NCBI RefSeq assembly: GCF_041248615.1
Contig: NZ_CP158425.1
Reading direction: 5' to 3' (one strand)
Origin: Escherichia coli
GTDB taxonomy: Bacteria > Pseudomonadota > Gammaproteobacteria > Enterobacterales > Enterobacteriaceae
Length of the DNA: 64,000 nucleotides
Shown one piece after another: positions 1-50,020 of the stretch; the stretch's first letter is position 1; each line of letters begins with the position of its first letter. The notes beneath the pieces are model-generated. The model made no database searches and had not been told where the DNA came from. It worked only from the letters and a program-made list of their open reading frames with translations. The translations under genes were made by a program, and so were the position numbers.

Positions 1-551
1 CACACTCAGCCATTAACAACCCTATGATTAACCTTCTGGCGCAGGGTCGTGCAGCGAAAATTGCACTGTTTATTTGCACCCAAACCATCTCCGACTTTAT
101 TGCTGCGGCAAGTGTTGAAACTGCCAATCGAATTACGGGGCTCTGCAACAATTATATAAGCTTGCGAGTCAACGATACTCCTACTCAGACGCTTGTTGTA
201 GAGAACTTTGGTAAGAGTGCGATAAGCACAAATATGGTCACTTATACGACCGGTTCAGAAACATCTTTGCCGCATAATAACTTCTCAGGTTCAATCTCAG
301 AAAGAAAGCAGACAACTTTAGAAGAGAGTATTCCAAAGGATCTCTTGGGTCAGGTCCCTATGTTTCACATAGTTGCCAGGCTTCAAGATGGCAGGAAGGT
401 TGTAGGCCAAATCCCTATTGCTGTTGCTGAGAAACAAATGAAGCCAAACACAACTCTGTCGGAAATGCTTTTCAAGAAGGCCGGAAAAGTTACTTTGCGT
501 CAAAATCTCGATATCAAAAATCTTAATAAATTTCTAAGGAAGTTGCATTGA
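1..551 (+). CDS. C-terminal fragment of a P-loop ATPase (FtsK/HerA/VirD4-like); 5' end lies outside the window
   Basis: Frame of ORF 24..551 is open back to the window edge; GRAAKIALFICTQT resembles the GR-K-G...TQ box that follows Walker B in this ATPase superfamily. Confidence 0.35.
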   Translation, partial: HSAINNPMINLLAQGRAAKIALFICTQTISDFIAAASVETANRITGLCNNYISLRVNDTPTQTLVVENFGKSAISTNMVTYTTGSETSLPHNNFSGSISERKQTTLEESIPKDLLGQVPMFHIVARLQDGRKVVGQIPIAVAEKQMKPNTTLSEMLFKKAGKVTLRQNLDIKNLNKFLRKLH

Positions 552-1660
552 TGGATGAAAAAATTGTCCTGACGCGCCAGCAAATTTTAAGCTCTGCACT
601 AAAAGTCAGCAAATGTCGCTCGCTCGTAAAAAGGCGCTTTCAGTCTTTGGGTTTAAAGTACGCAGATTCTCAGGAAGTTCGAGATCGGCTAACTAAGATA
701 GAAAAAAACGCGTTTCATCATTTGGGAAAATTTTGTCAGAGCAACGATATCGATTCCCTATTCTCCATGGCAAATACCCTGTCTGAGCTTTTCCTTTTAA
801 AGGGAGAGTTGATCACGACTGATCCCTTTGGGGACCGTGAAACCAGCTACTGGTCGGTACCACAAGGTTCATGCCATGAATGGATTCAATCGCTGACCAC
901 CAGCGAAGGTCCTGAACGTAAATTCGTTAGTTTCCGTATTTCTTTCGATAACAATGACGAACGGTGTGATCTTGTAAAGAAGAATGCCCGTATGCTTGGT
1001 TGTTATCTTTTGCCTTATTTCGTCGATTTGACACGCACGGTGGGCGCATTCATTAATTTGCCAGGTAGTGTCTCTTTTAAACAAGTACAGCGCATCAAAC
1101 CCCAGATTCATCCAGAAACAACACATAGTCATATAGTTACTATTGAGGACTCTCCCTTTCTTTCTCGGTTAAAATTTAAAATCATTACTGCCATAGATCG
1201 GCTTCCTGACCCTAATGGCCTTTATACAAACACCTTTAACAGCATTATTGACCGTGCACTGCTGACTCATCTCAAAACCGAACAGGAAAAAATAGATAGT
1301 CCAAGAGTCTGCAAAAATGTGATTTCGGCTTTTGCCGACTCAACTCTTTCTCTGCCGGTGTTTAACATCGGCCTAAACGAGCAGTACAGATACTGGACGC
1401 CGTGGGGCATCAACTTTATAGAATTTTCCCGCCAGGCCGCAAAAGCAAGGACCGCTGTATTTGTTCCTGATGTGGGACAGATCGAGTGGAAAAGCGCAGA
1501 GCATAAAGAACTGGCGGAGTTAAGCCTCATCGACCAAATCATACCTAAACAGTACCACTGGCTCCTGGGTATCCCGACGATGTGGCGTAACAACTATTGC
1601 AATCACGATCAGAGGCTAGCTCTTTTTCGTGAATGGAGGGAAAGCAATGGCTGCGGATAA
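548..1660 (+). CDS. hypothetical protein
   Basis: 370-aa ORF; start overlaps the upstream stop (ATGA), consistent with translational coupling. Confidence 0.5.
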   Translation: MMDEKIVLTRQQILSSALKVSKCRSLVKRRFQSLGLKYADSQEVRDRLTKIEKNAFHHLGKFCQSNDIDSLFSMANTLSELFLLKGELITTDPFGDRETSYWSVPQGSCHEWIQSLTTSEGPERKFVSFRISFDNNDERCDLVKKNARMLGCYLLPYFVDLTRTVGAFINLPGSVSFKQVQRIKPQIHPETTHSHIVTIEDSPFLSRLKFKIITAIDRLPDPNGLYTNTFNSIIDRALLTHLKTEQEKIDSPRVCKNVISAFADSTLSLPVFNIGLNEQYRYWTPWGINFIEFSRQAAKARTAVFVPDVGQIEWKSAEHKELAELSLIDQIIPKQYHWLLGIPTMWRNNYCNHDQRLALFREWRESNGCG

Positions 1661-2309
1661 TACAAGCAGAGCAGCAGTGCTCAGAACAATGCTTTTTTTT
1701 GGCATGGTCATTTATTTTGGTTACAGCCTGGCTTTCCAGAATACTGAGGAGCTCAAATATCAGATTACTCAGGAGGTTAATGCAAGCCGGTCCATCATAT
1801 CAAATGACCGTTGGAAGTCTGTTATTGCAAATAGTGAAGCGACTTTAAATTGGTTGGTACATGACTATAAGTTAATTGACTATCTGAATACTATTCTGAT
1901 CCCTGACACCAAAAAACCAGCCAGAGGTATTAACATTGTTGCTGAAAAATTTACCTCTATTAATTACACTATGGCCAAAAACATACCCCTCTTACTTTAT
2001 CAGTCCATTTTCCGGTGGAACTTAATCCTGGGGTGGCTAATCGTTTTTCTGCCCTATCTATTTGCCATGCTAGCAGATGGAATGTACCAGTGGAAATTGA
2101 AGAGGTACGTATTTGGTAAGGTTACAGTTCAGTTTTATCGTATTTGGTTTCGAGCATTTTGGGTGATCAGTGCTTTAACGATGGTCTACCTGGTCATGCC
2201 GAATATGTCACTATTTAACAATATCGCTCAACTTTTCCCACCAGTCGCTTTATTGATACTGGGAATTGCATTGAATCGCTTGTGGTCTAACTTTCAAAAA
2301 CTCATGTAA
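1629..2309 (+). CDS. integral membrane protein
   Basis: 226-aa ORF with several hydrophobic segments; overlaps the upstream gene. Confidence 0.45.
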   Translation: MNGGKAMAADNTSRAAVLRTMLFFGMVIYFGYSLAFQNTEELKYQITQEVNASRSIISNDRWKSVIANSEATLNWLVHDYKLIDYLNTILIPDTKKPARGINIVAEKFTSINYTMAKNIPLLLYQSIFRWNLILGWLIVFLPYLFAMLADGMYQWKLKRYVFGKVTVQFYRIWFRAFWVISALTMVYLVMPNMSLFNNIAQLFPPVALLILGIALNRLWSNFQKLM

Positions 2310-2319
2310 AGGTGGTCAG

Positions 2320-3501
2320 ATGTTAAGCAGTAAAAAAAGGAAGTCCCCTACAAATATCAAAGAATCGCTCAATGATAACGCTGACCGTTTTTATAAGATG
2401 TTTCGCATTCATACCACGGCAAAAGTTGCTATGTCGCTAATTGCCATGACCGCTGTAGGGTTTTCTTTCTACAATCTTTACGAACAATGGCAGGACGCTG
2501 AAGGGAAGAAAGACCATATAGCTGTAATACGGATTTCTGGCGAGATGGGTACCGGCTCGGAAACGGGCGATGGAACAGTGATCGCAACAGCTCTTGCCAA
2601 AGCTTACAATAATCCCCATGCCAAAGCAGTTATTATCGAGGCAGAGTCAGGTGGTGGTGGTCCCTCTGACGCCATCATTATTTACCGCCAGATAAACGCG
2701 CTTAAAAACCACCAGCCACAGATTGAACGCGTATCAGATGCCGGTTGCTCTCTTTCATCTGTAGCCGCTGACAAGAGTAACAAAACCGGGAGCACAGAAC
2801 GTGGCGATGAAGCACGGTCGAAGCAAAACTCCCTCGAAGTACTCTCCAGCGGTACCGGTCGTTTTTTCTCTGATATCGCAGACTCATATAAACCAATCAT
2901 CGTTAGTGTGAAAGGCATATGCGCATCCGCATGCTATTACGCGGTATCGCCCGCTGATGCAATTTATGCCGACAGTAATGCCCTGATCGGTTCTATCGGT
3001 GTGCGTATGGACCACTGGAATCTGTCAGAGATCATGAGCACAGTAGGCGTCAAGAATGAGCCCCTTACGGCCGGTGAGTTCAAAGATGCTCTTGACCCCT
3101 TCCACCCATTGTCCGATTCAACGAGGGAGTTCATGCAGAAGGAGATCCTGAACACGATGCATGAAAAATTTATAACTGATGTTGAACTTGGACGGGGTAA
3201 AAAGCTTCTCTCGCGTCATGATGCCGATGCTGTTTCTCTCTATTCAGGCCGTGTATGGCCAACACCTCAGGCAGTTAAGTACGGCCTGGTGGATGGAGAT
3301 CTTACGTCAGTAGAGATCCGTACACGTCTTTCAAAAATGTACTCCACTGACACGTTCAAAAACTACAATGAGCCTCATCGTAATCTCCGTTCTGCACTCG
3401 GCATGCTGATGAGCCTGTCTTCAAATATTGAGAGCCTTACCGGTACCACTACCCGCTTGGTAGAATCTGTTAATGCCACCAGCTACCCCTCTGTGAGGTA
3501 A
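2320..3501 (+). CDS. S49-family (SppA-like) serine peptidase, membrane anchored
   Basis: N-terminal TM segment; motifs GICASACYYA and LIGSIGV resemble the SppA active-site region. Confidence 0.55.
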   Translation: MLSSKKRKSPTNIKESLNDNADRFYKMFRIHTTAKVAMSLIAMTAVGFSFYNLYEQWQDAEGKKDHIAVIRISGEMGTGSETGDGTVIATALAKAYNNPHAKAVIIEAESGGGGPSDAIIIYRQINALKNHQPQIERVSDAGCSLSSVAADKSNKTGSTERGDEARSKQNSLEVLSSGTGRFFSDIADSYKPIIVSVKGICASACYYAVSPADAIYADSNALIGSIGVRMDHWNLSEIMSTVGVKNEPLTAGEFKDALDPFHPLSDSTREFMQKEILNTMHEKFITDVELGRGKKLLSRHDADAVSLYSGRVWPTPQAVKYGLVDGDLTSVEIRTRLSKMYSTDTFKNYNEPHRNLRSALGMLMSLSSNIESLTGTTTRLVESVNATSYPSVR

Positions 3502-3502
3502 C

Positions 3503-4234
3503 ATGGATGCTTTCAATCTGCTGTGGAGCATTACGGGGGTAGCTTTCATTATCCTTATTTTCGTCGTGTTGCTGTGTCTGTTGGGTTTTATGACCTCTGC
3601 CATAGCGGAACGGCGGACTGCAAAGGCAATTGAATCTGGGCTTCCTGAAGAAGCTCAGGGGCTACTTAGTGATCTCACCTTTCAGTTGTCGGCTCATAGC
3701 ACTACTCAGGTTGATCACATTCTCGTAGCCCCACATGGTATATACGTCATAGAGCAGAAAAACTACGTAGGCAAGCTCTACGGTACTCTGGAGGAAAGCC
3801 ACTGGCGGAAATGGACTCAGTCCCGAACCCTCAAGTTGCAGAACCCGTTTAAGCAAAACCAGGGGCACATCAGGGCTATTCAGTCTGCTCTTAAGGCTAG
3901 AGAACTGGAATGTATCAATGTCGTCATCATAAACGGACGTTGTAAGTTTGATGGCATCAAGCCGGAATGGTTATGTATGGGGATGGACGATTTTATCCAT
4001 AAAGTCAAACAACGACGAGGGCTACGGTTGTTCACACCGGAGTCTGTTCAGCACATCTGTTCGGTGTTGAAGTCAACAAGGAAGTCGCCAGGGCTCTATA
4101 CGGACCTTACTCATATTCACAACATAACGACAAAGTACAAAGCCCCGATGAAATTCGAGCAACGAGTAACATACATTCTGCTCAACTTTATCCATTATCT
4201 GTGGGCAAGTCTGTTCACTAAGCAGAAGCCTTAG
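3503..4234 (+). CDS. NERD-domain (nuclease-related) protein with N-terminal TM helix
   Basis: HILVAPHGIYVIEQKNYVGKLYG...W fits the NERD pattern; coupled to the upstream stop. Confidence 0.55.
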   Translation: MDAFNLLWSITGVAFIILIFVVLLCLLGFMTSAIAERRTAKAIESGLPEEAQGLLSDLTFQLSAHSTTQVDHILVAPHGIYVIEQKNYVGKLYGTLEESHWRKWTQSRTLKLQNPFKQNQGHIRAIQSALKARELECINVVIINGRCKFDGIKPEWLCMGMDDFIHKVKQRRGLRLFTPESVQHICSVLKSTRKSPGLYTDLTHIHNITTKYKAPMKFEQRVTYILLNFIHYLWASLFTKQKP

Positions 4235-4272
4235 CGCTCTATCATTGGTAAGGCTGTAAAATGTCTGCAAAA

Positions 4273-4306
4273 GGCCCCATCGGTAAATTGTTGGGGCTTT
4301 TTCTTT
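4273..4306 (+). terminator. rho-independent terminator
   Basis: GCCCCA/TGGGGC stem followed by TTTTTCTTT just after the 3503..4234 stop. Confidence 0.5.
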
Positions 4307-4520
4307 GCGTAGTTCTGATACGGTTTATCCTGTGGAGCATTATGGCCACCAGCCAGCTGGTGACTGGCCAACGCTTTGTATGACGTAGCCTACTCAGGGC
4401 AGGCTATTTTAGAGGGACCGATTTTTATCCGGGCTAATTTAGAAAGAGATAATTTGAACTTAGGCGGGCTGACCACCAGCAGAGAGGTAAATCACTAGCC
4501 GGTGATATTGACAGAAGTCG

Positions 4521-4883
4521 TCAGGGGTTTAACGCCGGAATATTTTGCCAGGCCTCCTGCAAGGTCTGCAAGACTTCTACAAGTGATAGTGACGGCCACA
4601 GGACTGTTTCCGTCATTATCACTCCAGGTGGCTCGCACTCTACTGGTACCAGAATTAAAACAACACGAGTTCCTTTTACCTGGTAGGCAAGGTTTACTGC
4701 CGGTTGGCGGTAGGAGGCCAGTACACCCTCACCATATTGAGCAGGGTTACTTGCCCAGTTCCGCACCATTGCATACACCTGAGGCATATACCGACTATCC
4801 AGATCCCCTTTGGGCCGTCTGAACGGCACGATTTCTTCTGAGCGGTAGGTGGTCGTTGTTGTATTGGTTGTCATCTTTGTCAC
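4521..4883 (-). CDS. hypothetical protein
   Basis: 120-aa ORF with GGGGAGGTGA RBS upstream. Confidence 0.45.
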   Translation of the reverse strand: MTKMTTNTTTTTYRSEEIVPFRRPKGDLDSRYMPQVYAMVRNWASNPAQYGEGVLASYRQPAVNLAYQVKGTRVVLILVPVECEPPGVIMTETVLWPSLSLVEVLQTLQEAWQNIPALNP

Positions 4884-4939
4884 CTCCCCTGTTCGTCCAT
4901 TTAGAGTTTTAAGCTGCTTTACACATCACACTCAACTGA

Positions 4940-5224
4940 TTATTTAAGCTGGTCATCGTCTCTGGCCAGCATAGCCCAACCATTCGACTGGTTTTCGCGG
5001 GAGTAAGGATTCATTTCAAAATAACTATCTACCGCGTCGCTGTCCGCAACAGAACTGTTGTTAGCTCTCTTTGAACCCTGAACCACTACAGCATCAACCT
5101 CTGCGGCTTTCCCGTTGCGCTGTACCAGGATTTTAACCGTCTTGGGCTTACGTCTTGCGAGCAGTTTGTTGGCGATAAAAAGCACAACAATCCAGGCCAA
5201 AAGCACGTATAAAAATTTATTCAT
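4940..5224 (-). CDS. small membrane protein
   Basis: 94-aa ORF, N-terminal TM helix, AGGAGG RBS. Confidence 0.5.
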   Translation of the reverse strand: MNKFLYVLLAWIVVLFIANKLLARRKPKTVKILVQRNGKAAEVDAVVVQGSKRANNSSVADSDAVDSYFEMNPYSRENQSNGWAMLARDDDQLK

Positions 5225-5580
5225 AATGCCCTCCTTTGTATGTGATTATTATACCTGCTTCCATTGCAGGCCAAACAGGTTCGGTGTATGAAAAATAGAC
5301 TTCTCTCCGGCGTATAGCAATCTACTTACTGATCTGTTTTCGTATCAAACTGTATGGCATAACCGAGGGGCGTACGTGGTGAGTCAGAAAGTTACTTTTC
5401 CGTAATAGTTAATTTCAGATCCTTCTTCCAGTTACGCTTCAGTATAAAACCGATACCCTCTAATTCAGCATCCTTCACGTTTAATACGCTTCACTTTAAG
5501 GCAGGGCTTTTCGGTTGATATGAATTCTTTTTCCGGTTGCTGGACATGGGTTTCATCCTGATAGTTAAAATTGCAGGCTA

Positions 5581-5883
5581 TCAGTCACCACCACCACCTC
5601 CTCCTCCTCCTCCTCCACCGCCACCATCACAACCACCAGCTATGCTATTTTCACCATTACAATCACCTCCGAGGGGGTTCAAATGGCTGCTCCCCTGTAG
5701 ATGGTGTCCTTGCCAGATCGAACCCGAACCAGCGCCTCCTGAGCGTCTTTGCTTGCCCTGAGGCAATTGTGCAGGCTCACCAGCACCGGCGGTCCCAAAA
5801 ATGTCCCGGGCAATTTTATAAAGAAGGTAAAAAGGTACGCCCAGCATCATAAAAAAGATTACTGAAAATATTACACGTTCCAT
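5581..5883 (-). CDS. small membrane protein with C-terminal poly-Gly tract
   Basis: 100-aa ORF, AGGAGA RBS, TM helix; Gly tract is encoded by a CCN/GGN triplet repeat. Confidence 0.45.
   Translation of the reverse strand: MERVIFSVIFFMMLGVPFYLLYKIARDIFGTAGAGEPAQLPQGKQRRSGGAGSGSIWQGHHLQGSSHLNPLGGDCNGENSIAGGCDGGGGGGGGGGGGGD
5583..5630. repeat. triplet microsatellite (CCA/CCT)n, about 14 units
   Basis: Uninterrupted CCN triplets visible in the sequence. Confidence 0.9.
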
Positions 5884-6315
5884 TGATGATCTCCTGTCTT
5901 GTGAGAGACCAGTTATATCAGGGTGATTCAGTATTTCCGTTTAGAAAAGAGTACTAATTTGGCCCTGTTCGATCTTAATTTGCCATCCGGGAAAAAGTCA
6001 TAGGGATAGGCCTGCCAGAGTCAATAACTTCCAGTGATCTGGAGGAGACCCCGGCTCTCTGAGCCCTCATGGATGGTACGGCTTTACCCCCTGTAAACAG
6101 ATTCACGTTCCGCAGGACAAACATCGACTACTGACGTCTCATATTTGCTGACGCTAATCCGACGTCTCATTGCCGTCTGCTTGTTTTCTTTAAAGGGTGT
6201 ATTAGACGAATATCAAATCGGAATGGTAGGGGATGTGTGGGCACCATGCCCGGCCCTCTTTGAGCATCTGAGAGATTGGAGACCTAGCCGGGTAAGATAG
6301 CTACTTTCTTACGGG

Positions 6316-6684
6316 TTACCCTTCAAATCCAAAGACGAAACGGACGCTGCCGTTCTCCACGTGGAGACGCTTTACTTCTTCGACAAATTCCTGGATCACC
6401 TCTCCGGCGTTATCGGGTGGTATGGCTGACAAAATTTCTTCCGAAGTCAGCCATGAGTATGAATGTTCACCGAATAAATCATCATCTTCGGACGGTATAT
6501 CATCAGGTAATCCGCGTAATGCGTGGATAAAAACTGCTGATGTGCTCGCCCTTTCACGATCTACATCAAATCCGAGCCAGGCAAAGTGGAGATATGATCG
6601 GTCCCCTTTATAATTGCTTGATAAATTAATCCATTTACCAGGCTTTTCTTCCCTTTGAAATCGCCAGCAGATATCAACGCCCAT
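6316..6684 (-). CDS. hypothetical protein
   Basis: 122-aa ORF in a minus-strand gene string. Confidence 0.4.
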   Translation of the reverse strand: MGVDICWRFQREEKPGKWINLSSNYKGDRSYLHFAWLGFDVDRERASTSAVFIHALRGLPDDIPSEDDDLFGEHSYSWLTSEEILSAIPPDNAGEVIQEFVEEVKRLHVENGSVRFVFGFEG

Positions 6685-6848
6685 TAAGAAACTCCATTAC
6701 TATCGTTCGTATGAGATAACTATCATTTCAGAATACTATGACTTCTTCCCGTATAGAACTAATCGCTCACGCCAACTGGGCGAAGCCAACCGGTTCCGCC
6801 ACTTCGCTCATTGGTTTTTAGGCGTAAGCACTGAAGCCAGTCTCCATG

Positions 6849-7391
6849 CTAACTGGCGAGCCTGCGAAAGTCAGACTCGTTGTTATAAAGCGGCATATCG
6901 TAAGCGGTGTCTGAAATGAACATGCGGATCTGCTCAAGCGTCATGCCACAATGAAAACGGTTTACGCTCACATTGGCCCGGGGGAAGTCAGCACAAAACG
7001 CATTCAAAACATTTTCATGGACAATGCCAATGTTGATCAACGCAGCTGGCCCGTTGTCACGGAAGGATACGACACGGAATCCCCCATACCAGCCTGAATG
7101 GGAGAAAAATGAAAATGCGCCGGATGCCAGACCATTAGACAGGTCATAGCGCAATTTCCCGCACAGAGACTGGCTGTCTTTGCTGTACACGCGATTAATG
7201 AAAATACCGGGACCAACTTCTACCGGCTGCTTGTTGCTTGCTAAACACGGAAAGCCCACCAGCGAAACCTCCCTTTCTCCTGACCAGTTTACCTGATACC
7301 CGGCAGTGAGAAAGTCCGTCAGTTCTACGCCAGAAAGAGCATTAATGGCCGCGATATCGGTAGTCAAAATATTTACGTTTTTCATATTCAT
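6849..7391 (-). CDS. hypothetical protein
   Basis: 180-aa ORF. Confidence 0.45.
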   Translation of the reverse strand: MNMKNVNILTTDIAAINALSGVELTDFLTAGYQVNWSGEREVSLVGFPCLASNKQPVEVGPGIFINRVYSKDSQSLCGKLRYDLSNGLASGAFSFFSHSGWYGGFRVVSFRDNGPAALINIGIVHENVLNAFCADFPRANVSVNRFHCGMTLEQIRMFISDTAYDMPLYNNESDFRRLAS

Positions 7392-7452
7392 CTCATCTTT
7401 ATTCTAAAGTGCGTTTTTTGTCTATCAGCCCGAGGATTGAAAATTTGAATAT

Positions 7453-7890
7453 TTAATGTGACAGATAAATACCTGTCACTTTTTCAAAAACAGCCTGTAA
7501 TTGAATATCGAGAGAGTTCATTTTAAAATCCACCAGCTCACCTTTATTATCGCAAACCAAATAAAAATAGGAGTCAAATGCGTCTGTATCTTCATCTTTA
7601 AAAATACGGAAGGAATTAATTTTATCATGCCCTTCAAATTCGGCATGAATACCATAGCGAACCGAGCCGTCATCGAACTGAACAACCCGTCGTACAGAAT
7701 TAATCCGGACGTACTGTTTTAAGGCCCTCGCGAAATCGGCATTTAACGCCAACGCTCGTAAGATTGAATCAGCGGTTTCATTCTGCTTTTTACGATCGTA
7801 TTCAAATATCCCACAGCCGGTGTTACGAAAGACCGGCTGAAGAGCATTAACCAGGTTGAAGGAATCCACGTTTCTGTCGTTTCTGTACAT
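7453..7890 (-). CDS. hypothetical protein
   Basis: 145-aa ORF. Confidence 0.45.
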   Translation of the reverse strand: MYRNDRNVDSFNLVNALQPVFRNTGCGIFEYDRKKQNETADSILRALALNADFARALKQYVRINSVRRVVQFDDGSVRYGIHAEFEGHDKINSFRIFKDEDTDAFDSYFYLVCDNKGELVDFKMNSLDIQLQAVFEKVTGIYLSH

Positions 7891-7934
7891 GAGATATCTC
7901 CTGCCCCTCCGCTATACGAAGGGGCTTGATAGGG

Positions 7935-8231
7935 TTACTGCCAGGCTGCGATCACTTCTTCGCACTGGAAATGAGATAAGCACTGCTGGAGTAGAAGAGC
8001 CAGCACCGCTGTGTTAGGGACGCGATTGTTACACCACGCGTTGAAAAGCAGCTGCCATGGACCGGCATAATACCCGGCCAGTTTCTTTTTTTGTTTAGCT
8101 GTACGGCAGCGGGAAATGGCCTGCTGATAAAGGCTTTCATTCTCATCACCAGCCCGTTTTTGCAGAGTGCGATAAATATACGAATAAAGACTGTCAGAAC
8201 AGTTTGAAGCGTACGCCAGTTGTTTTTTCAT
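7935..8231 (-). CDS. hypothetical protein
   Basis: 98-aa ORF with AGGAGG RBS, perfect TATAAT -10 and the GGTTATTAGC box upstream. Confidence 0.45.
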   Translation of the reverse strand: MKKQLAYASNCSDSLYSYIYRTLQKRAGDENESLYQQAISRCRTAKQKKKLAGYYAGPWQLLFNAWCNNRVPNTAVLALLLQQCLSHFQCEEVIAAWQ

Positions 8232-8284
8232 AATACCTCCTGTTTAGAAGTATTATATGTAAACAGCCTCAGCGGCTAATAACC
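8232..8284 (-). promoter_or_regulatory. promoter with conserved GGTTATTAGC box, 17-bp spacer and TATAAT
   Basis: Minus strand reads GGTTATTAGCC-17nt-TATAAT-RBS-ATG. Confidence 0.5.
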
Positions 8285-8351
8285 CGTAGCAATATAATTT
8301 GCATTTTTTCTATTTCTGAAGACGCTTTTTAAATTAATATTTACTGAGTTA

Positions 8352-8630
8352 TCACAACTTATTATTCTTCCCGTCTGCTGTTTTATTAATCCCCCAGTTA
8401 GTAATCACGCCAAGTCGGCGCAATTTTTCACGTTGTTCATAAATAAAAAAATCGCCAAGGCAGTCTTTTAAAACTTCACTATCCTGATATTTTATTTTTT
8501 GAAGCATCCTCGCAACTATGGCGCGTTTCAGGAATATGGCTGCATCAGACTCAAGCATTTGTGAGGACTGTCTGACGGTCTCCTGCATGTCGACGATACT
8601 GCTGAGCTTTCGTCTGACCACGCTTAGCAT
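8352..8630 (-). CDS. hypothetical protein
   Basis: 92-aa ORF. Confidence 0.35.
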   Translation of the reverse strand: MLSVVRRKLSSIVDMQETVRQSSQMLESDAAIFLKRAIVARMLQKIKYQDSEVLKDCLGDFFIYEQREKLRRLGVITNWGINKTADGKNNKL

Positions 8631-8814
8631 AGTGTCCGGGAACCGCTTAGCGGCTGAATGTAACCCGCAACAACGTTACGCATTGTTTTACTCACTGCAA
8701 TTTTCCATTTAAGTCTGTTTGTTCCACCAGCTGCTAACATCAGCGTTATTCATCCTGAGGTTTCGCCCGCGATTGACAGATCAGAGGCAGCATGGATGAA
8801 ATTGCCAGAGTAGA

Positions 8815-9096
8815 TCACTGCATACGCGAATAGTGGTTTGTATTCAGTTCTGCGTTTGCCTGCTTTTCCAGTGCTGTCATAACCCGGCGGAGCATCGCCA
8901 GAGCCTGAACAGGCGAGCTCCCAAACTGCACTTTCACTTCAGCCGTATCATGATCCTGAATCAGGTCGAGTATATTCACTTCGATCCCTGCCCCGTTTTC
9001 ATCTTTTGCCGTGCACTGAATACTTACCCGGGTCACCGAATCCGTCAGGACTGGCAGTGGGTTAGTTTTGTCTACGTTGATAACAGCCTTCTTCAT
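8815..9096 (-). CDS. hypothetical protein
   Basis: 93-aa ORF immediately downstream of the ParB-like gene. Confidence 0.4.
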   Translation of the reverse strand: MKKAVINVDKTNPLPVLTDSVTRVSIQCTAKDENGAGIEVNILDLIQDHDTAEVKVQFGSSPVQALAMLRRVMTALEKQANAELNTNHYSRMQ

Positions 9097-9161
9097 TGCC
9101 CTGTTTCCCCTTGTCCTGAAAAAGTTACCGACCCGTCCGGATGGAGGGGTCGGTCAGAAAA

Positions 9162-10346
9162 TCATGACTGTCCCTTGTTCATCTTATCAGCATGCTTACG
9201 CAGGTACTCTTTCAGGTCAGCATGAGCGTTGATGATATCGTTCATTTCATCATTGGTCAGAACAAGCGTGTAAGTATCAGTACTGACAGATTCACCTTCT
9301 TTAAGCTTGGCTTCTTCAGCAATACGTTCAAAAATCGGGATCGCGGTGTCTGCAATGACGGTCACAGTCTTTTTGTTCAGAACGCTGGACATGGAAGGTG
9401 CTTTACCTGCCGGGTTCTGTTTAGGAGCGCTGTCCTTTGGAGCTGGAGCCGGTTCCTGTACCGGTGGCGTATCCAGCGTCTCCGTATTGCTTTCATCGTT
9501 CAGTTGATCCGGTACCGGGGTGTTATCGGTAGTATCATCTGCCGGTTGCTCAGCACCGATGTTTTCCGGAGTCTGCGGATCTGCCATGCGCTCTTCTACC
9601 TTGGCAGCTTTGACGAATTTCAGCGTGTTTTTCGTCGCCTTGCCATAGATGGAGATCGCTTTGTTGATGTTATCTACCGCATCCTCACCGCTGTACATAT
9701 ACTCGTCCAGTGCAACGTACATGCTCACCTGATCGCTCACAAGCATGGTCTGTAGTTCAGAAGGCAGGTCCAGTACGCGAACCATCTGGCGAAGATGCTG
9801 CTCTGATTTACCACGTTTTTTTGCCAGTTCCGCAAAGGTCTTAGGCTCTTCTTTATCTTCAACCAGACGCTTAATTGAAAGCGCTTCAGCTACGACAGAC
9901 AGCGCCAGGTTGGAGTTGCCGGTCAGGGTGAAGAGTTCTGCTTTTGAAGCGCTACCGCGAAACTCTTCGCAGCGAATACGAGTAATGCGTTCACGCCCTT
10001 CTGCTTCCAGCTGGCGGTTTGCAATAGCGATGGAACGGATACGGCAAGCCCCCTGACGCAGTACAGGTACGCCATTAACCATCTGAACAACGATAGGCGT
10101 CACGCTGAACGGGTCTTCCATGTAGGCATCGGCCAGGCTGTTCAGGTGTTCCACAACGTGAGGCATTGAATAGTAGAGCTCGCCCATACCGGCCGTGCGG
10201 GTGTTAAAGCCTTCCTGCTCTACAACAACCGAAGGGTCAATGATAAGGCCGTTGCCTTTACGGGCACCGTTACCAGTGCGTTCCAGGTAACCACGAAGGC
10301 TGATTTCGTTGCTGTTGTTTTTTACTTCAGTTTCGATTGCGGACAT
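9162..10346 (-). CDS. ParB N-terminal domain protein (ParB/Srx-like), paralog 1
   Basis: GFNTR and VNGVPVLRQGACR motifs shared with ORFs 58095..59258 and 62469..63524; no ParA partner. Confidence 0.6.
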   Translation of the reverse strand: MSAIETEVKNNSNEISLRGYLERTGNGARKGNGLIIDPSVVVEQEGFNTRTAGMGELYYSMPHVVEHLNSLADAYMEDPFSVTPIVVQMVNGVPVLRQGACRIRSIAIANRQLEAEGRERITRIRCEEFRGSASKAELFTLTGNSNLALSVVAEALSIKRLVEDKEEPKTFAELAKKRGKSEQHLRQMVRVLDLPSELQTMLVSDQVSMYVALDEYMYSGEDAVDNINKAISIYGKATKNTLKFVKAAKVEERMADPQTPENIGAEQPADDTTDNTPVPDQLNDESNTETLDTPPVQEPAPAPKDSAPKQNPAGKAPSMSSVLNKKTVTVIADTAIPIFERIAEEAKLKEGESVSTDTYTLVLTNDEMNDIINAHADLKEYLRKHADKMNKGQS

Positions 10347-10560
10347 TTTTGTTCTCTTTTTTGGTTGGTTGTTTAACTGCGCTACAACACAACAATACCA
10401 GGTTCGACATTTTTCCTAATAGGTTGCGGAGAAGAAAAAGTAACTTTTTTTAAAAATTTTCCTGAGGCAATACTACTCGATCCGTCCGTTTTAAATCTTC
10501 ACAACAGTGGGCCGTTTTTACGTTTAAGCAAAATAACTGGTTCAGAAGGTGACTCAGAGA

Positions 10561-10575
10561 GAAAAGTTACTTTTC
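10561..10575. promoter_or_regulatory. palindromic motif GAAAAGTTACTTTTC (candidate operator)
   Basis: One of at least 14 copies of AAAAGT(A/T)ACTTTT in intergenic DNA; a second copy at 10435-10451. Confidence 0.5.
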
Positions 10576-11447
10576 CGGTTGTCTGGGCCAGTGATGGGAG
10601 AGTGGCAGGACAGGAATGGCTAAACCGGTGCGGGTCTCTTGTAAGTCGCAGGGGATTCAGGAGATATAGAGGTAAACTGGTACGTTCAGTTTTTGGATTG
10701 AGCCGGGCTTTTGGCCCGGGCTTAAGGAAGCAGAAATTTGAACGAACTGGCAGGTAATGCTTTATGCCGCCGACAGCTGGCCGTCAGTGCTTTGCTGTTC
10801 TGGTTTGACAGTTGGGGGATAACCGGCAGTTAGCCGCTGGCATTCCGCATCACAGAAAGCCCTGAGGTTGCTGAAGACGGACTCCATGAAATCAGCATGA
10901 GCATACGAGTCTACAGGACGTGTCTTGTTATCTTTCATCTTGTTCTCCTCAATCATTATTAAAACCAGCGGATTTAGTTTCTGGCGCTCCATCTGCTGAC
11001 CGGCTTTCCCAGAGAGCAGCGATGTGTCGGGTTCTTTTTCTCATTTTATCGTTTTCATCGGGCCCATCCGGGCGTATAAGAGACCGATTTGGCATGTTTA
11101 GGAAACGTACTGGCGTAATTAAAAGCTGAGGTTGGATTTGGAATAAAAGGATGCTTTTCCCGTTTGTCGGGTCTTTCGCCACCGCTGCACGATGATTCTG
11201 TCAGGCATTCTGCGCCCTCCCAGGCTGCACATCTGGAAACAAGCGTTGGGATGTTCCCTTCCCCTGCTCACCGTAGAAAGATCGGCAAGTCCCGACGGTC
11301 GTTCCGTACGAGCCGGGTCCAAATAATGAATAAATAAAACGCCGCTTCAATTGTATTGACAATAGAAGTCAGGAGGATCATAGTGTCATTCATGGTGCGG
11401 CTTTCGCACCACCGCCCCGGCGGTACCGGGCAGAACTGGAGTACCTC

Positions 11448-12392
11448 ATGAAACTTTCCCGTCAGACGACTTCTGATACTTCTGTTGATGGCCGTTCACG
11501 CGCATATGCCTGGGGCCGTGTCCATTATTTCATTATCGAACATGCACCAATGGCTGAGCTGGTCGCTATTGACGAGCTGCTGGAAAAAGCTGGCTGGAGC
11601 AATGACGGCTGTCCGAACTATGAGAAAGATGACGAGTTTGGTAATGCTGGTTACAGCTGTGGTTACTGGATCGATATTGACAGCGTGGGAAGCTTCAAGG
11701 CTGACTACAAACGTCTTAAGGGGGAGATTAGTGCGCATATCGCCTCAAAGGCGGCAGAGGTGGAGATCCGCGTACTGGACTCGATGTCCGACAAAGAATG
11801 TAAAGATGTTGCCTCGGTGGCATCTACTGTTCGCCGTGACTTACGTACGCAGTCCGAATCGCTTCATTCACTGCGTACAATCGTAACGGTTGATCATTAC
11901 AATCCCTATGTGACCACCAGCCGCCCGCTGAGCATTTCCGCCTGGACACTTATCCACGACTGTCTGAAAACAGGCACCATCAATGACGTCTGTTCACGGT
12001 TGAGTTCATTAATCCTGCACTCTGAAGCCGCGATTGCCCGTTGTAAGGGAAGCTCCGACTACTCTTCGGAACACGCTCAGCTATCGTTTTTTGCTGGTAA
12101 CGACTATGTCACCAGACGCACCCTTGTTGATGCAGCTCACGAAGAGGCTCTGCGAATGAACCGCCGCTTTGATGAACGCATTGCAATGAACGCGGATTCT
12201 GATGCCAGAAGGCTCCAGTGCGAATTCAACCTTAGCAACCATGTCGTACAGCGTAGGACCGTTGAATCTGCTCATATCCAGGCACTCAATGAAGACGTCA
12301 CCCGTTCACAGGCGGAACCACGCTGCCCTGGAAAGCTTCTTCTGAATATGACCAGTCATGAGGAAGTGCGGGACTCACTGAGCGCCTGTTAG
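11448..12392 (+). CDS. hypothetical protein
   Basis: 314-aa ORF heading a short plus-strand gene set. Confidence 0.45.
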   Translation: MKLSRQTTSDTSVDGRSRAYAWGRVHYFIIEHAPMAELVAIDELLEKAGWSNDGCPNYEKDDEFGNAGYSCGYWIDIDSVGSFKADYKRLKGEISAHIASKAAEVEIRVLDSMSDKECKDVASVASTVRRDLRTQSESLHSLRTIVTVDHYNPYVTTSRPLSISAWTLIHDCLKTGTINDVCSRLSSLILHSEAAIARCKGSSDYSSEHAQLSFFAGNDYVTRRTLVDAAHEEALRMNRRFDERIAMNADSDARRLQCEFNLSNHVVQRRTVESAHIQALNEDVTRSQAEPRCPGKLLLNMTSHEEVRDSLSAC

Positions 12393-46269: not shown

Positions 46270-48115
46270 TGATTACGACAATGGGAGTGAGTGTCGAACC
46301 CCTTGAGTAAGGATACTTGGTAAATATACAGCCCCGGGGATTCTCTTCCTTCAACCGGGGATGACAACGGGAGTGAGTCCGGCAACTCACACCTGTTGTC
46401 ACTTCTCTGACATATCGTCATACGAGCTTACTCAAGCGCATCCACAAAGATGGGATCGTTTTGAATCTAAACTGGTACTGGTTAGCCAGTCACTTGCATC
46501 TACTCCCCCGTCGATATTTAAGTGACAATTGTAGTGATCTGCAATACTGGTGTCTCAGAAACACTGACGACGGTAGAGACTCAATACCCTAACCCCTGAC
46601 AACAGAAGTGAGCTTAGAGGTGTTACGCTGCTGTCACCTAATGCTTGGGAATTGCCTGACTCACAACCATTGTCATCCGGAGCTACTGATTAACGTTGAA
46701 CCGCTGGACTTTAATGACAGTGGTAGTGATGGATAGGCTCATTTCCATTGTCGTCATTTTATCGGACAAGCCTCTTCGTCCTACAGGTTTAAGCTGACAA
46801 TGGTAGTGATTGGATGATCTCACTACTGTTGTCACTCAGTTCTTTGAGCGGACCCTTCCCTCGGTTGGTCGGCATTAACAACGGTAGTGACTCGATTGGC
46901 TCACTGCCATTGTCATCGTGTAAATGACGTACCTTATCAGCTCAGCTGAAAGCAATGACAACGGTAGTGACTCTAATTGCTCACTGCCATTGTCGTCGTG
47001 TCTATTGAGAGCCTTATCAGTGCACCTGAAAAGCAATGACAACGGTAGTGATTCTAATGGCTCACTACCGTTGTCACCGTGTGTATTGAGAGGATGGTCC
47101 ACCTAACTGGACGTATATGACAATGGTAGTGACTTTAATAGCTCACTACCATTGTCGGTGTGTGAATTGAGAGGATGAGCAGCTCAGCTGTACGTCCATG
47201 ACAATGGTAATGACTTAATGAGCTCACTACCGTTGTCACCCTGTTAATTAAGAGGCTCATCTGCTCTTCTGGAAGGCTATGACAACGGAAGTGACTTGCT
47301 GGGCTCACTGCCATTGTCGCCGTATGAATTGAGAGGATCATCCGCTCTTCTGGATGGCAATGACAACGGTAATGACTTAATAGGCTCACTACCATTGTCA
47401 CCCTGTGAATTGAGAGGATGATCTGCTTAACCAGACGGCCATGACAACGGTAGTGACTTTCTGGGCTCAATACCGTTGTCACCCTGTGAGTTAAGAGGTT
47501 GACCCGCTCTACTGGACGGCCATGACAACGGTAGTCACTTTCTGGGCTCACTACCGTTGTCACCCTGTGAGTTAAGAGGTTGACCCGCTCTACTGGACGG
47601 CCATGACAACGGTAGTCACTTTCTGGGCTCACTACCGTTGTCGCCATATAGAATGAGAGGAGCATCAGCTCAACTGAACGGCAATGACTACAGTAATGAG
47701 CTGGATGAAGCATAACCATTGACATCTGGCCCAACCGGAAGCCGTATTCGCCAATCCAATCGAGATTCACAATGGCCGTGACTCGCCGCATTAAGTTCCG
47801 GTGTCCTCCCAAAGCTGAACGCACACTCGGAGGACAATGACAATGCCAGTAAGGTACACATCATTACCATTGTCACTATAGCTACCAGAGAAGCCGGGAT
47901 TTGAATGTCGATGGTAGTGAGTGGGTCAACTCACTGCCATTGTCACCCCGTTACGATATTTTCCGTTGGATGTACTGGCCAATGAAGTAAAGCGTAGAAA
48001 CCGGGTGTTAACAGGTGACTCAGGAGAAAGCGTTGAATTTCGCAATCTCGATCTACATAGGGTGGTAGAGAACAATGACAACGGTAATGACTTTTGACTC
48101 ATTACCGTTGACGTG
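46270..48115. repeat. array of about 20 palindromic iteron pairs with about 81-bp periodicity (incA-like copy-control region)
   Basis: Units ATGACAACGGTAGTGAC-8nt-CTCACTACCGTTGTCAC recur every 80-81 bp (47118, 47198, 47279, 47360, 47441, 47522, 47603 and others). Confidence 0.7.
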
Positions 48116-49495: not shown

Positions 49496-50020
49496 TCACT
49501 ACTATTGTCGCTCTGATCACTACTGATGTCAAAAAACTCATTACCAACGTTATAATAATCACTACTAATGTCAAAATAATCACTACTGTTGTCACTGATC
49601 ACGTCTCAGGCCTTGTGCCGTCTGGCCTGGAGGCAGCGGGGATCTCTTTTGATCTATCAGGAACACTAAGGTACTAATTATTGGAACTACCTTGTGGAAA
49701 ATGGGGATAAATAAATGCTTAGTTCTTATACAGGTCTCAACTTGCCTCCCTGATAAAAACTGTCGTCAAAGCTAAATCACAGCCACAGGCATTTTCGGTG
49801 GATAAATTTTTGAGAAATAGAAGCATACATGCAGACTCGTGTCGCAAGTAATTGAAAGTAATGATTTATTTAAATAATGCGAGTCACCTTACCTCACAGT
49901 GGAAGTTTAAGTCTAACCTCACTACCATTGTCACTTAAAATCATTACCAACGTCGAAATAGTCTCTACCATTGTCTTTTAAGTCACTCCCGTTGTCACTT
50001 ATGTCGCTACTGTTGTCAGT
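49496..50020. repeat. origin iterons: two sets of five direct repeats (TCACTACNNTTGTC) at 21-22-bp spacing
   Basis: Set 1 starts at 49496, 49517, 49538, 49559, 49580; set 2 at about 49918 to 50004. Confidence 0.7.

What the first reader, a model, noticed from the sequence alone, without database searches (positions are those of the whole stretch)
5583..5630. Triplet repeat encoding a C-terminal poly-Gly tail in a small membrane protein
About 14 uninterrupted CCN/GGN triplets end ORF 5581..5883, which has an RBS and an N-terminal TM helix. Slippage would change tail length without a frameshift, a possible length-variable feature. The opposite-strand poly-Pro ORF lacks translation signals.
Basis: seen in the sequence. 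Interest (0 to 1): 0.35.

Follow-up and report, generated by a model that had tools for sequence, protein, structure and literature searches.

The report
Length-variable poly-glycine tail, IncHI2 plasmid gene
A small, plasmid-specific membrane protein of unknown function ends in a run of 13 glycines encoded by a triplet repeat that gains and loses whole codons between otherwise identical IncHI2 resistance plasmids; this is an ordinary slippage-prone repeat in a dispensable gene, useful mainly as a typing marker and as an assembly caveat.

Summary
There are 13 uninterrupted Gly codons, not about 14, at 5587..5625. They end the minus-strand ORF 5581..5883, which has an AGGAGA ribosome-binding site and an N-terminal helix.

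The window is IncHI2 conjugative-plasmid backbone, and the ORF is RefSeq hypothetical protein WP_000442694.1. The tract is a compound microsatellite: GGT GGC GGT (GGA)6 (GGT)4 GAC TGA.

The two runs vary independently between complete plasmids whose 258-nt gene body is identical: (GGA)3-6 and (GGT)4-10, giving 11 to 16 glycines. Protein records with 9 and 3 glycines also exist. Two plasmids differ from the window over 3.6 kb only by this indel. A second major lineage carries an Asp-interrupted tract that is almost uniform, as slippage predicts.

Nothing shows the variation is adaptive:
- One allele holds 48% of 974 records.
- There is no on/off switching.
- The gene has no detectable homologues outside IncHI2 and shows only weak purifying selection.
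- Tn10 disrupts it in the archetype plasmid R478.

Verdict: a real, polymorphic, probably neutral in-frame repeat in a dispensable orphan gene. Interest is low.

Side observation: 10 co-oriented Chi sites lie in window 1-12000, one inside this gene.

The parts
5581..5883 (-). ORF for a 100-aa orphan protein (RefSeq WP_000442694.1, 'hypothetical protein'), restricted to IncHI2 plasmids
   Evidence: ORF list. PGAP annotation in pSTM6-275 and many other plasmids. No Pfam, NCBIfam or PHROG family. No distant homologue among 1.84 billion representatives. It is the only frame of six without stops in the compared segment, with 6 synonymous and 8 non-synonymous differences against L007 (P=0.08).
5587..5625 (-). 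Compound trinucleotide microsatellite encoding 13 Gly: GGT GGC GGT (5617-5625), (GGA)6 (5599-5616), (GGT)4 (5587-5598)
   Evidence: Sequence and TRF. Allele series between plasmids. Exact-allele count of 466 of 974 PLSDB records.
5584..5586 (-). Terminal Asp codon (GAC) after the Gly run. The same GGT-GAC motif also interrupts the tract in the second plasmid lineage.
5890..5895 (-). Shine-Dalgarno-like AGGAGA, 6 nt upstream of the ATG
   Evidence: Sequence. Invariant in all six aligned plasmids.
5788..5880 (-). Codons for residues 2-32, a predicted helix whose hydrophobic core (residues about 4-26) is the putative transmembrane anchor
   Evidence: Hydropathy. AlphaFold2 helix 2-32 with block pLDDT 87-94.
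5633..5640 (-). Canonical Chi site GCTGGTGG formed by codons Ala82-Gly83-Gly84, two codons upstream of the tract. It is one of 10 co-oriented Chi sites in window 1-12000.
5737..5745 (+). Site (TCCTGAGCG) that is duplicated on both sides of Tn10 in plasmid R478, where the transposon splits this gene after about codon 49
   Evidence: R478 annotation and junction sequences. The truncated 64-aa product P0013 reads into the IS10 end.

Best explanation
The tract is a slippage-prone, in-frame compound trinucleotide microsatellite, (GGA)n(GGT)m. It lies at the 3' end of an IncHI2-specific orphan gene.

The gene most likely encodes a small single-pass membrane protein: an N-terminal hydrophobic helix followed by a Gly/Ser/Gln-rich disordered tail. 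Strand slippage during replication adds or removes whole GGA or GGT units, so the C-terminal poly-Gly tail changes length (3-16 Gly observed) without a frameshift.

The variation is probably neutral or nearly so. The tail is low-complexity and unstructured. The alleles behave as slow lineage markers rather than a fast switch. The gene itself is dispensable for plasmid carriage.

Shown here: the repeat anatomy, the codon-unit polymorphism, its confinement to the tract, and the natural knock-outs. Inferred: slippage as the mechanism, translation and membrane insertion of the product, and neutrality.
For: **Polymorphism confined to the tract**
- Nine DNA alleles occur in complete plasmids with zero substitutions in the 258-nt gene body: a6b4, a5b5, a4b6, a5b4, a4b5, a4b4, a5b6, a4b7 and a3b10, where a counts GGA units and b counts GGT units.
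- L002 and L005 match the window over 3.6 kb except for a 6-nt and a 3-nt tract gap.
- Several non-modal alleles recur in independent complete assemblies from different countries and hosts.

**Distribution**
- A 99-nt query was run against 974 PLSDB records. 466 were exact, 58 were 95-99% identical, 439 were 90-95% (mostly the interrupted allele) and 11 were 80-90%.
- In an even sample of E. coli complete genomes, 44 of 60 rows were identical and about 11 were same-lineage tract variants.

**Interruption stabilises the tract**
- The lineage with GGA GGA GGT GAC GGA (GGT)4 was uniform in all 26 sampled rows. This is the usual behaviour of interrupted repeats.

**Gene features**
- A ribosome-binding site is present, the frame is open, and AlphaFold2 predicts a helix at residues 2-32 with the rest disordered.

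**Dispensability**
- Tn10 splits the gene in R478, with a 9-bp target duplication.
- The resulting 64-aa product is recorded on 460 contigs.
- pEGY49_MCR-1.1 has an internal deletion that ends in the tract.
- An 80-aa frameshift form is recorded on 81 contigs.
Against: - No direct evidence of transcription or translation was obtained. No sigma-70-like promoter was found in the 432 nt upstream.
- The purifying-selection signal is weak: 6 synonymous to 8 non-synonymous, P=0.08.
- Three alleles keep the total at 13 Gly (a6b4, a5b5, a4b6). This could hint at selection on length, or it could reflect unit conversion at the GGA/GGT junction.
- Some of the variation could be sequencing error. Hundreds of short-read contigs end inside the tract, and single-residue variants (V, R, E, C, A) occur on single contigs.
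- Mutation rate and within-culture heterogeneity were not measured.
Confidence: 0.72

Rival explanations
1. Adaptive length variation. The poly-Gly tail would act as a tunable spacer or linker of a membrane protein, for example one involved in plasmid establishment, exclusion or an interaction with host or phage. Slippage would then supply selectable diversity, as in a contingency locus.
For: - The tract is the only variable site in otherwise identical 3.6-kb contexts.
- Many alleles exist.
- Three alleles conserve a total of 13 Gly.
- The gene sits in a long same-strand array of small orphan genes. That array also holds a methyltransferase, an HNH protein and Hok. It resembles regions that carry establishment and anti-defence genes.
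Against: - Changes are in-frame, so there is no on/off switch.
- The runs are short (3-10 units).
- One allele holds 48% of records, and the other major lineage is fixed.
- Alleles track sublineages and do not appear scrambled.
- The gene is knocked out in R478 and its many descendants.
- No phenotype is known.
Confidence: 0.1
2. The tract would matter as DNA and not as protein. It would be a G-rich, Chi-adjacent element: a canonical Chi plus one-mismatch Chi GGTGGTGG repeats, a possible two-tetrad G-quadruplex, and a polypurine run. It would belong to an oriT-proximal array that modulates RecBCD or replication. The ORF would be incidental.
For: - Canonical Chi lies at 5633-5640, two codons before the tract.
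- (GGT)4 contains two one-mismatch Chi sequences.
- CCACCAGC is the most frequent 8-mer in window 1-12000, with 10 copies all in one orientation, all conserved in the divergent locus L007.
- With G-quadruplex folding allowed, the predicted energy of the coding strand drops from -26 to -72 kcal/mol. These are RNA parameters and only indicative.
- Short-read contigs often break in the tract.
Against: - The frame is open in every variant and has a strong ribosome-binding site and a hydrophobic N-terminus.
- The Chi is lost in pAGR6137a, where AGGCD becomes AGFD, with the tract retained.
- Nine other Chi sites in the cluster have no such tract.
- There is no experimental link.
Confidence: 0.08
3. 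The apparent length variation would be largely a sequencing or assembly artefact of a difficult G-rich repeat.
For: - Partial proteins of 86-94 aa that end in the tract are recorded on 205, 136, 127, 84, 38, 38 and 23 contigs.
- Two Logan contigs end 2 nt after the same tract position.
- Odd single-residue variants occur on single contigs.
- Chimeric 'partial' proteins P0026 and P0029 join the tract to window ~4700.
Against: - The same non-modal alleles recur in independent closed assemblies from different laboratories and countries: a5b4 three times, and a4b4, a4b6, a5b6 and a4b5 twice each.
- All changes are whole 3-nt units confined to pure runs. From general knowledge, this is not the usual error profile of long-read homopolymer errors or Illumina substitutions.
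- The interrupted allele is stable across hundreds of records.
Confidence: 0.07
4. The ORF would be a precursor of a ribosomally made, post-translationally modified peptide of the microcin B17 type, with a Gly-rich core containing Cys.
For: The C-terminal region GGDCNGENSIAGGCDG13D is Gly-rich with two Cys. From general knowledge, the microcin B17 precursor McbA also carries a run of about ten Gly.
Against: - No neighbouring gene matches any Pfam, NCBIfam or PHROG family for cyclodehydratase, dehydrogenase, export or immunity.
- The N-terminus is a hydrophobic helix, not a leader peptide.
- One Cys is lost in pAGR6137a.
- The gene is often disrupted.
Confidence: 0.02

Closest known systems
Coding simple-sequence repeats (microsatellites) of bacteria, including contingency loci
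   Same: Tandem short units that expand and contract by slipped-strand mispairing. Alleles differ by whole units between close relatives while the flanks stay identical. An interruption stabilises the array.
   Different: Classical contingency loci switch genes on and off through frameshifts or promoter spacing, and they use long runs. Here the unit is a codon, the runs are short (3-10 units), only tail length changes, and no phenotype or rapid switching is shown.
McbA, the plasmid-encoded microcin B17 precursor with a poly-Gly run (from general knowledge)
   Same: A small plasmid-encoded product with a long uninterrupted glycine run next to Gly/Cys-rich sequence.
   Different: There is no leader peptide and there are no McbBCD-type modification, export or immunity genes nearby. 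The N-terminus is a membrane helix, and the Gly run is at the extreme C-terminus.
Small single-pass membrane proteins of plasmids (for example Hok-type toxins, entry-exclusion proteins)
   Same: Short ORF, one N-terminal hydrophobic helix, plasmid backbone location, and a Hok family gene in the same region.
   Different: There is no sequence-family match. At 100 aa it is longer than type I toxins, it has a 70-residue disordered tail, no antisense RNA was detected, and disruption is tolerated.

Membership tests
Polymorphic coding microsatellite (SSR) | Head-to-tail copies of a 1-6 nt unit | tested here: met
   TRF finds a period-3 array at 5586-5638. The codon parse is (GGA)6(GGT)4 plus GGT GGC GGT.
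Polymorphic coding microsatellite (SSR) | Copy number differs between close relatives in whole units while the flanks are conserved | tested here: met
   Nine alleles occur with an identical 258-nt gene body. L002 and L005 are identical to the window over 3.6 kb except for the tract.
Polymorphic coding microsatellite (SSR) | Interrupted arrays are more stable than pure arrays | tested here: met
   The GAC-interrupted allele was uniform in all 26 sampled rows of its lineage, whereas the pure-run lineage shows about 11-13% non-modal alleles.
Contingency (phase-variable) locus | A repeat change switches expression on or off, by frameshift or promoter spacing | tested here: not met
   Every observed tract change is a multiple of 3 and lies at the 3' end of the ORF, so the frame is kept.
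Contingency (phase-variable) locus | High-frequency reversible switching within a clonal population | not testable with these tools
   This needs read-level or fluctuation data. Contig breaks in the tract are compatible with heterogeneity but equally with coverage loss.
Microcin B17-type (thiazole/oxazole-modified) precursor | Adjacent cyclodehydratase/dehydrogenase (McbBCD-like) and export/immunity genes | tested here: not met
   Seven neighbouring ORFs have no relevant Pfam, NCBIfam or PHROG hit. Annotated neighbours are hypothetical proteins, a NERD protein and an S49 peptidase.
Microcin B17-type (thiazole/oxazole-modified) precursor | N-terminal leader peptide followed by a Gly/Ser/Cys-rich core | tested here: inconclusive
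   A Gly-rich core with 2 Cys is present, but the N-terminus is a 19-23 residue hydrophobic helix. One Cys is lost in pAGR6137a.
Single-pass (bitopic) membrane protein | One hydrophobic segment of about 20 residues predicted as a helix | tested here: met
   Residues 4-22 have mean hydropathy 2.24. AlphaFold2 predicts a helix at 2-32 with high confidence. Membrane insertion and topology were not tested.
Type I toxin (Hok-like) | Match to a toxin family, size under about 60 aa, and a cis-antisense RNA | tested here: not met
   There is no family hit and the protein is 100 aa. Rfam gives only a sub-threshold Mu-gpT-DE hit upstream of the start (24.4 bits against a gathering score of 49).

The most novel reading that the evidence does not exclude
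The tract and the Chi site two codons upstream could both belong to a functional oriT-proximal module of IncHI2 plasmids. That module would be a dense, co-oriented Chi array: 10 sites in 12 kb, conserved in a divergent relative, and one-sided with respect to mobI and the presumed oriT. Its role would be to limit RecBCD degradation of DNA ends created at oriT. The small same-strand genes, including this membrane protein with its adjustable poly-Gly tail, would act in plasmid establishment. On this reading tail length would be under diversifying or stabilising selection and would not be neutral.
Probability: 0.08. Interest if true: 0.55.

Novelty: new member of a known kind. Interest (0 to 1): 0.22.

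Why it matters
Biologically this matters little. It is one more in-frame coding microsatellite, in an orphan gene that the archetype plasmid R478 carries in disrupted form.

It has three practical uses:
- The (GGA)a(GGT)b allele is a cheap marker with finer resolution than the surrounding, invariant backbone. It could sub-type epidemic IncHI2 resistance plasmids that carry mcr-1, mcr-9, blaCTX-M and similar genes.
- The tract is a recurrent contig-break and error site in short-read assemblies, so protein 'variants' and 'partial' records at this locus should be distrusted.
- The natural knock-outs (Tn10, deletion, frameshift) show that the gene can be ignored, or used as a neutral insertion site, in plasmid engineering.

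The co-oriented Chi cluster beside the transfer origin, seen in passing, is probably the more interesting lead in this part of the window.

Tried and rejected
- **Family searches.** Pfam, NCBIfam and PHROGs on the protein and six neighbours gave nothing useful.
- **Remote homology.** A word-indexed search found only relatives at 56% identity or more, including truncated and frameshifted forms. An exhaustive HMMER scan of 1.84 billion representatives added only weak low-complexity matches to large proteins. The family is IncHI2-restricted.
- **Rfam.** On 4300-7000 there was only a sub-threshold Mu-gpT-DE match at 5881-5923(-), treated as chance.
- **Promoters and terminators.** No promoter lies directly upstream and no terminator directly downstream. 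A 7-bp inverted repeat (5558-5564 / 5578-5584) overlaps the stop codon but has no T-run.
- **Single-strand promoter idea.** Both strands of the 432-nt upstream spacer, and the plus strand of the 356-nt downstream spacer, fold no better than shuffles (z = +0.35 to +0.51). Rejected.
- **Selection test.** In six frames against the most divergent locus L007, the annotated frame is the best open frame, but the signal is weak.
- **GC skew.** Looked for a strand switch near 12 kb; uninformative.
- **Literature.** No paper mentions the RefSeq protein accessions. No IncHI2 paper read here reports the repeat. No paper linking Chi and oriT was found.
- **Typing locus smr0199.** I asked whether this IncHI2 typing locus is the same gene. 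It lies near the Tra1 genes and its allele 2 is 460 bp. I could not map it because pMG101-A and BX664015 are not in the collections. In R478 this gene is split by Tn10, which makes it an unlikely choice for a typing amplicon. Unresolved.
- **Microcin B17-like precursor.** Rejected for lack of partner genes.

Full report
**What the window is**

A 1.5-kb query around the finding matches 988 PLSDB plasmids at 95% identity or more. They are mostly 200-300-kb conjugative plasmids of Escherichia, Salmonella and Enterobacter. The best annotated match, pSTM6-275, is typed IncHI2A / MOBH / MPF_F.

The ORF at 5581..5883 (minus strand) is annotated there as hypothetical protein WP_000442694.1. It lies just beyond a plus-strand block: the coupling-protein gene (annotated traD), a hypothetical gene, a DUF4400/DtrJ-like gene, an S49 peptidase gene and a NERD-domain gene. 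It is the third gene in a long run of small minus-strand hypothetical genes.

**Check of the observation**

- The ORF is 100 codons and ends I-A-G-G-C-D-G13-D-stop.
- There are 13 uninterrupted Gly codons at 5587..5625. On the coding strand they read GGT GGC GGT (GGA)6 (GGT)4, followed by GAC and TGA.
- TRF finds it as the only period-3 array in 64 kb.
- AGGAGA lies 6 nt upstream of the ATG and is invariant in the six plasmids aligned.
- Residues 4-22 are strongly hydrophobic.
- AlphaFold2 from the single sequence predicts one confident helix at residues 2-32 and a low-confidence, unstructured remainder.
- The residues after position 30 include 27 Gly out of 70.

**Does the tract vary?**

Yes. 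I fetched 19 related copies from complete plasmids that are intact through the tract, plus R478 (split by Tn10), pEGY49_MCR-1.1 (internal deletion) and three assembly contigs. I parsed the tract codon by codon.

In the lineage of the window, the 258-nt gene body is identical in every copy. The tract takes these forms, written as (GGA)a(GGT)b:

| Allele | Total Gly |
|---|---|
| a6b4, a5b5, a4b6 | 13 |
| a5b4, a4b5 | 12 |
| a4b4 | 11 |
| a5b6, a4b7 | 14 |
| a3b10 | 16 |

Protein records with 9 and 3 Gly also exist (P0043 on 30 contigs, P0048 on 2 contigs). pEC_ABCX4-1 and pEC15-MCR-50 are identical to the window over 3.6 kb except for a 6-nt and a 3-nt gap in the tract. The tract is therefore by far the most mutable site in the neighbourhood, and the two pure runs change independently. 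This is what slipped-strand mispairing produces.

**How common are the variants?**

A 99-nt query centred on the tract puts any single difference below 99% identity. It gave 974 matching records:

| Identity to window allele | Records | Share |
|---|---|---|
| Exact | 466 | 48% |
| 95-99% | 58 | 6% |
| 90-95% | 439 | 45% |
| 80-90% | 11 | 1% |

The 90-95% class is almost entirely a second lineage found in Enterobacter, Klebsiella and Citrobacter (for example pKPC-272, and R478 itself). Its tract is GGT GGC GGT GGA GGA GGT GAC GGA (GGT)4, that is G6-D-G5-D. All 26 evenly sampled rows of that class had the same length and identity. With its longest pure run cut to four units, the interrupted tract is nearly fixed.

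An even sample of 60 of the 243 matching records from E. coli complete genomes gave 44 identical rows and about 11 same-lineage tract variants. The rest were the other lineage or partial matches. Each of the five variants I fetched differed only in the tract.

The tract is thus polymorphic on the timescale of plasmid sublineages. It is not scrambled, which argues against rapid phase variation.

**Is the ORF a gene?**

Evidence for:
- It is open in all variants.
- It has a strong ribosome-binding site and a plausible membrane anchor.
- PGAP calls it consistently.

The comparative evidence is only modest. The most divergent copy found (L007, a Logan contig) has 14 differences in the 258-nt body, 6 synonymous and 8 non-synonymous. 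The expected synonymous fraction is 0.23, giving P=0.08. The other five frames contain stops. At 5.4%, the body is more diverged than the flanks (1.6-3.7%).

No homologue outside this plasmid group was found, either by the word-indexed search or by the exhaustive HMMER scan. No family model matches. I therefore treat it as a fast-evolving orphan gene whose translation is likely but unproven.

**Is it needed?**

No, at least not for carriage.
- In R478, the IncHI2 archetype, Tn10 sits inside the gene. The IS10 ends abut the gene sequence on both sides, flanked by the duplicated 9-mer TCCTGAGCG, which is window 5737-5745.
- The resulting 64-aa product ends LMNPLMIF..., the translation of the IS10 terminus. 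It is recorded on 460 contigs.
- pEGY49_MCR-1.1 has an internal deletion running from the tract to codon ~18.
- An 80-aa frameshift form at a C5 run is recorded on 81 contigs.
- From general knowledge, R478 is transfer-proficient, so the gene is not required for conjugation.

**Mechanism and rivals**

The best-supported account is a neutral or near-neutral in-frame microsatellite in the disordered tail of a dispensable small membrane protein (confidence about 0.7).

- **Adaptive tunable tail.** Not excluded. Three alleles keep 13 Gly, and the genomic setting resembles establishment regions. But it has no positive support.
- **Purely DNA-level role.** Prompted by the Chi site two codons upstream and by G-quadruplex potential. 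The open frame argues against it, as does loss of that Chi in pAGR6137a with the tract retained.
- **Artefact.** A real concern for draft assemblies. It does not explain identical non-modal alleles in independent closed genomes.
- **Microcin B17-like precursor.** Fails for lack of partner genes.

**Assembly caveat**

Partial proteins that stop within the tract are recorded on 205, 136, 127, 84, 38, 38 and 23 contigs. Two contigs that I read end 2 nt after the same tract position. No 31-mer within the 39-nt tract is repeated, since the longest pure run is 18 nt. The breaks therefore reflect coverage or quality loss, or mixed alleles, and not a k-mer repeat. Which of these applies needs the reads.

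**Comparison with the known, and novelty**

The phenomenon, a coding trinucleotide SSR with an interruption-stabilised allele, is textbook. This instance appears undescribed: no paper cites the protein accessions, and the IncHI2 papers I read do not mention the repeat. I file it as a new member of a known kind, with low interest.

**Seen in passing**

The Chi octamer is 15-fold over-represented in the window: 21 copies against 1.4 expected. Its complement is the most frequent 8-mer in window 1-12000, with 10 copies all on the minus strand regardless of gene strand, and all conserved in L007. In R478 this cluster begins just right of mobI and the relaxase gene and has no counterpart on the left. 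That orientation is the one recognised by RecBCD travelling away from the presumed oriT. This may deserve its own follow-up.

Noticed in passing
window 897-11921 (minus strand); R478 locus L018/L025: The canonical Chi octamer GCTGGTGG occurs 21 times in the window against 1.4 expected. Ten sites in the first 12 kb are all on the minus strand, whatever the gene orientation. Its complement CCACCAGC is the most frequent 8-mer there, and all ten sites are conserved in the divergent locus L007. In R478 the cluster starts just right of mobI and the relaxase gene (presumed oriT side). The 50 kb to the left holds only 5 sites in mixed orientation. This orientation stops RecBCD moving away from oriT. 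No description was found in the searchable literature.
   Followed up: partly
window 5737-5745; R478 NC_005211.1 202.8-211.9 kb (L018 17800-26960): Tn10 (IS10-tetB-IS10) is inserted in the poly-Gly gene in R478 with the 9-bp target duplication TCCTGAGCG. The truncated 64-aa product is recorded on 460 contigs, including a 5.4-Mb one.
   Followed up: yes
window 5587-5625; loci L008, L009: Hundreds of short-read contigs (NCBI and Logan) end inside the tract, giving 'partial' proteins of 86-94 aa. Two 'partial' proteins (P0026, P0029) join the tract to sequence from window ~4700 on the other strand, probably through mis-assembly. The cause is unknown: coverage loss, sequence-specific errors or mixed alleles.
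   Followed up: partly
window 6318-6848: A segment of about 530 bp containing the 122-aa gene 6316..6684 is absent from the divergent IncHI2-like contig L007. This is an indel polymorphism next to the poly-Gly gene. That 122-aa protein has weak PHROG hits (phrog_10141, E=3e-5).
   Followed up: no
window 5881-5923 (minus strand): A sub-threshold Rfam match to Mu-gpT-DE RNA (24.4 bits, gathering score 49, E=0.012) covers the ribosome-binding site and 5' leader of the poly-Gly gene. It is probably chance.
   Followed up: no
window 46866-47699: An array of about 10 copies of an 81-bp unit (78% matches; also scored at periods 162 and 243). Shorter 21-bp repeat arrays lie at 49516-49594 and 49960-50018. 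These are possibly iterons or partition sites of the IncHI2 replicon.
   Followed up: no
window 4849-4883 (gene 4521..4883, minus strand): The neighbouring 117/120-aa hypothetical protein starts MTKMTTNTTTTTY. This short poly-Thr run is encoded by ACC repeats (GGT on the plus strand). The adjacent 94-aa gene (4940..5224) also has an N-terminal hydrophobic segment, so there are two small putative membrane proteins side by side.
   Followed up: no
L017 (pEC476), H1 (NZ_MF678350.1), L024 (pEGY49_MCR-1.1): The spacer just downstream of the gene is a recurrent target for rearrangement. In pEC476 an IS3-family element lies about 120 bp past the stop. In NZ_MF678350.1 an IS903B splits the 1.5-kb query. 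In pEGY49 a deletion has one end in the tract.
   Followed up: partly
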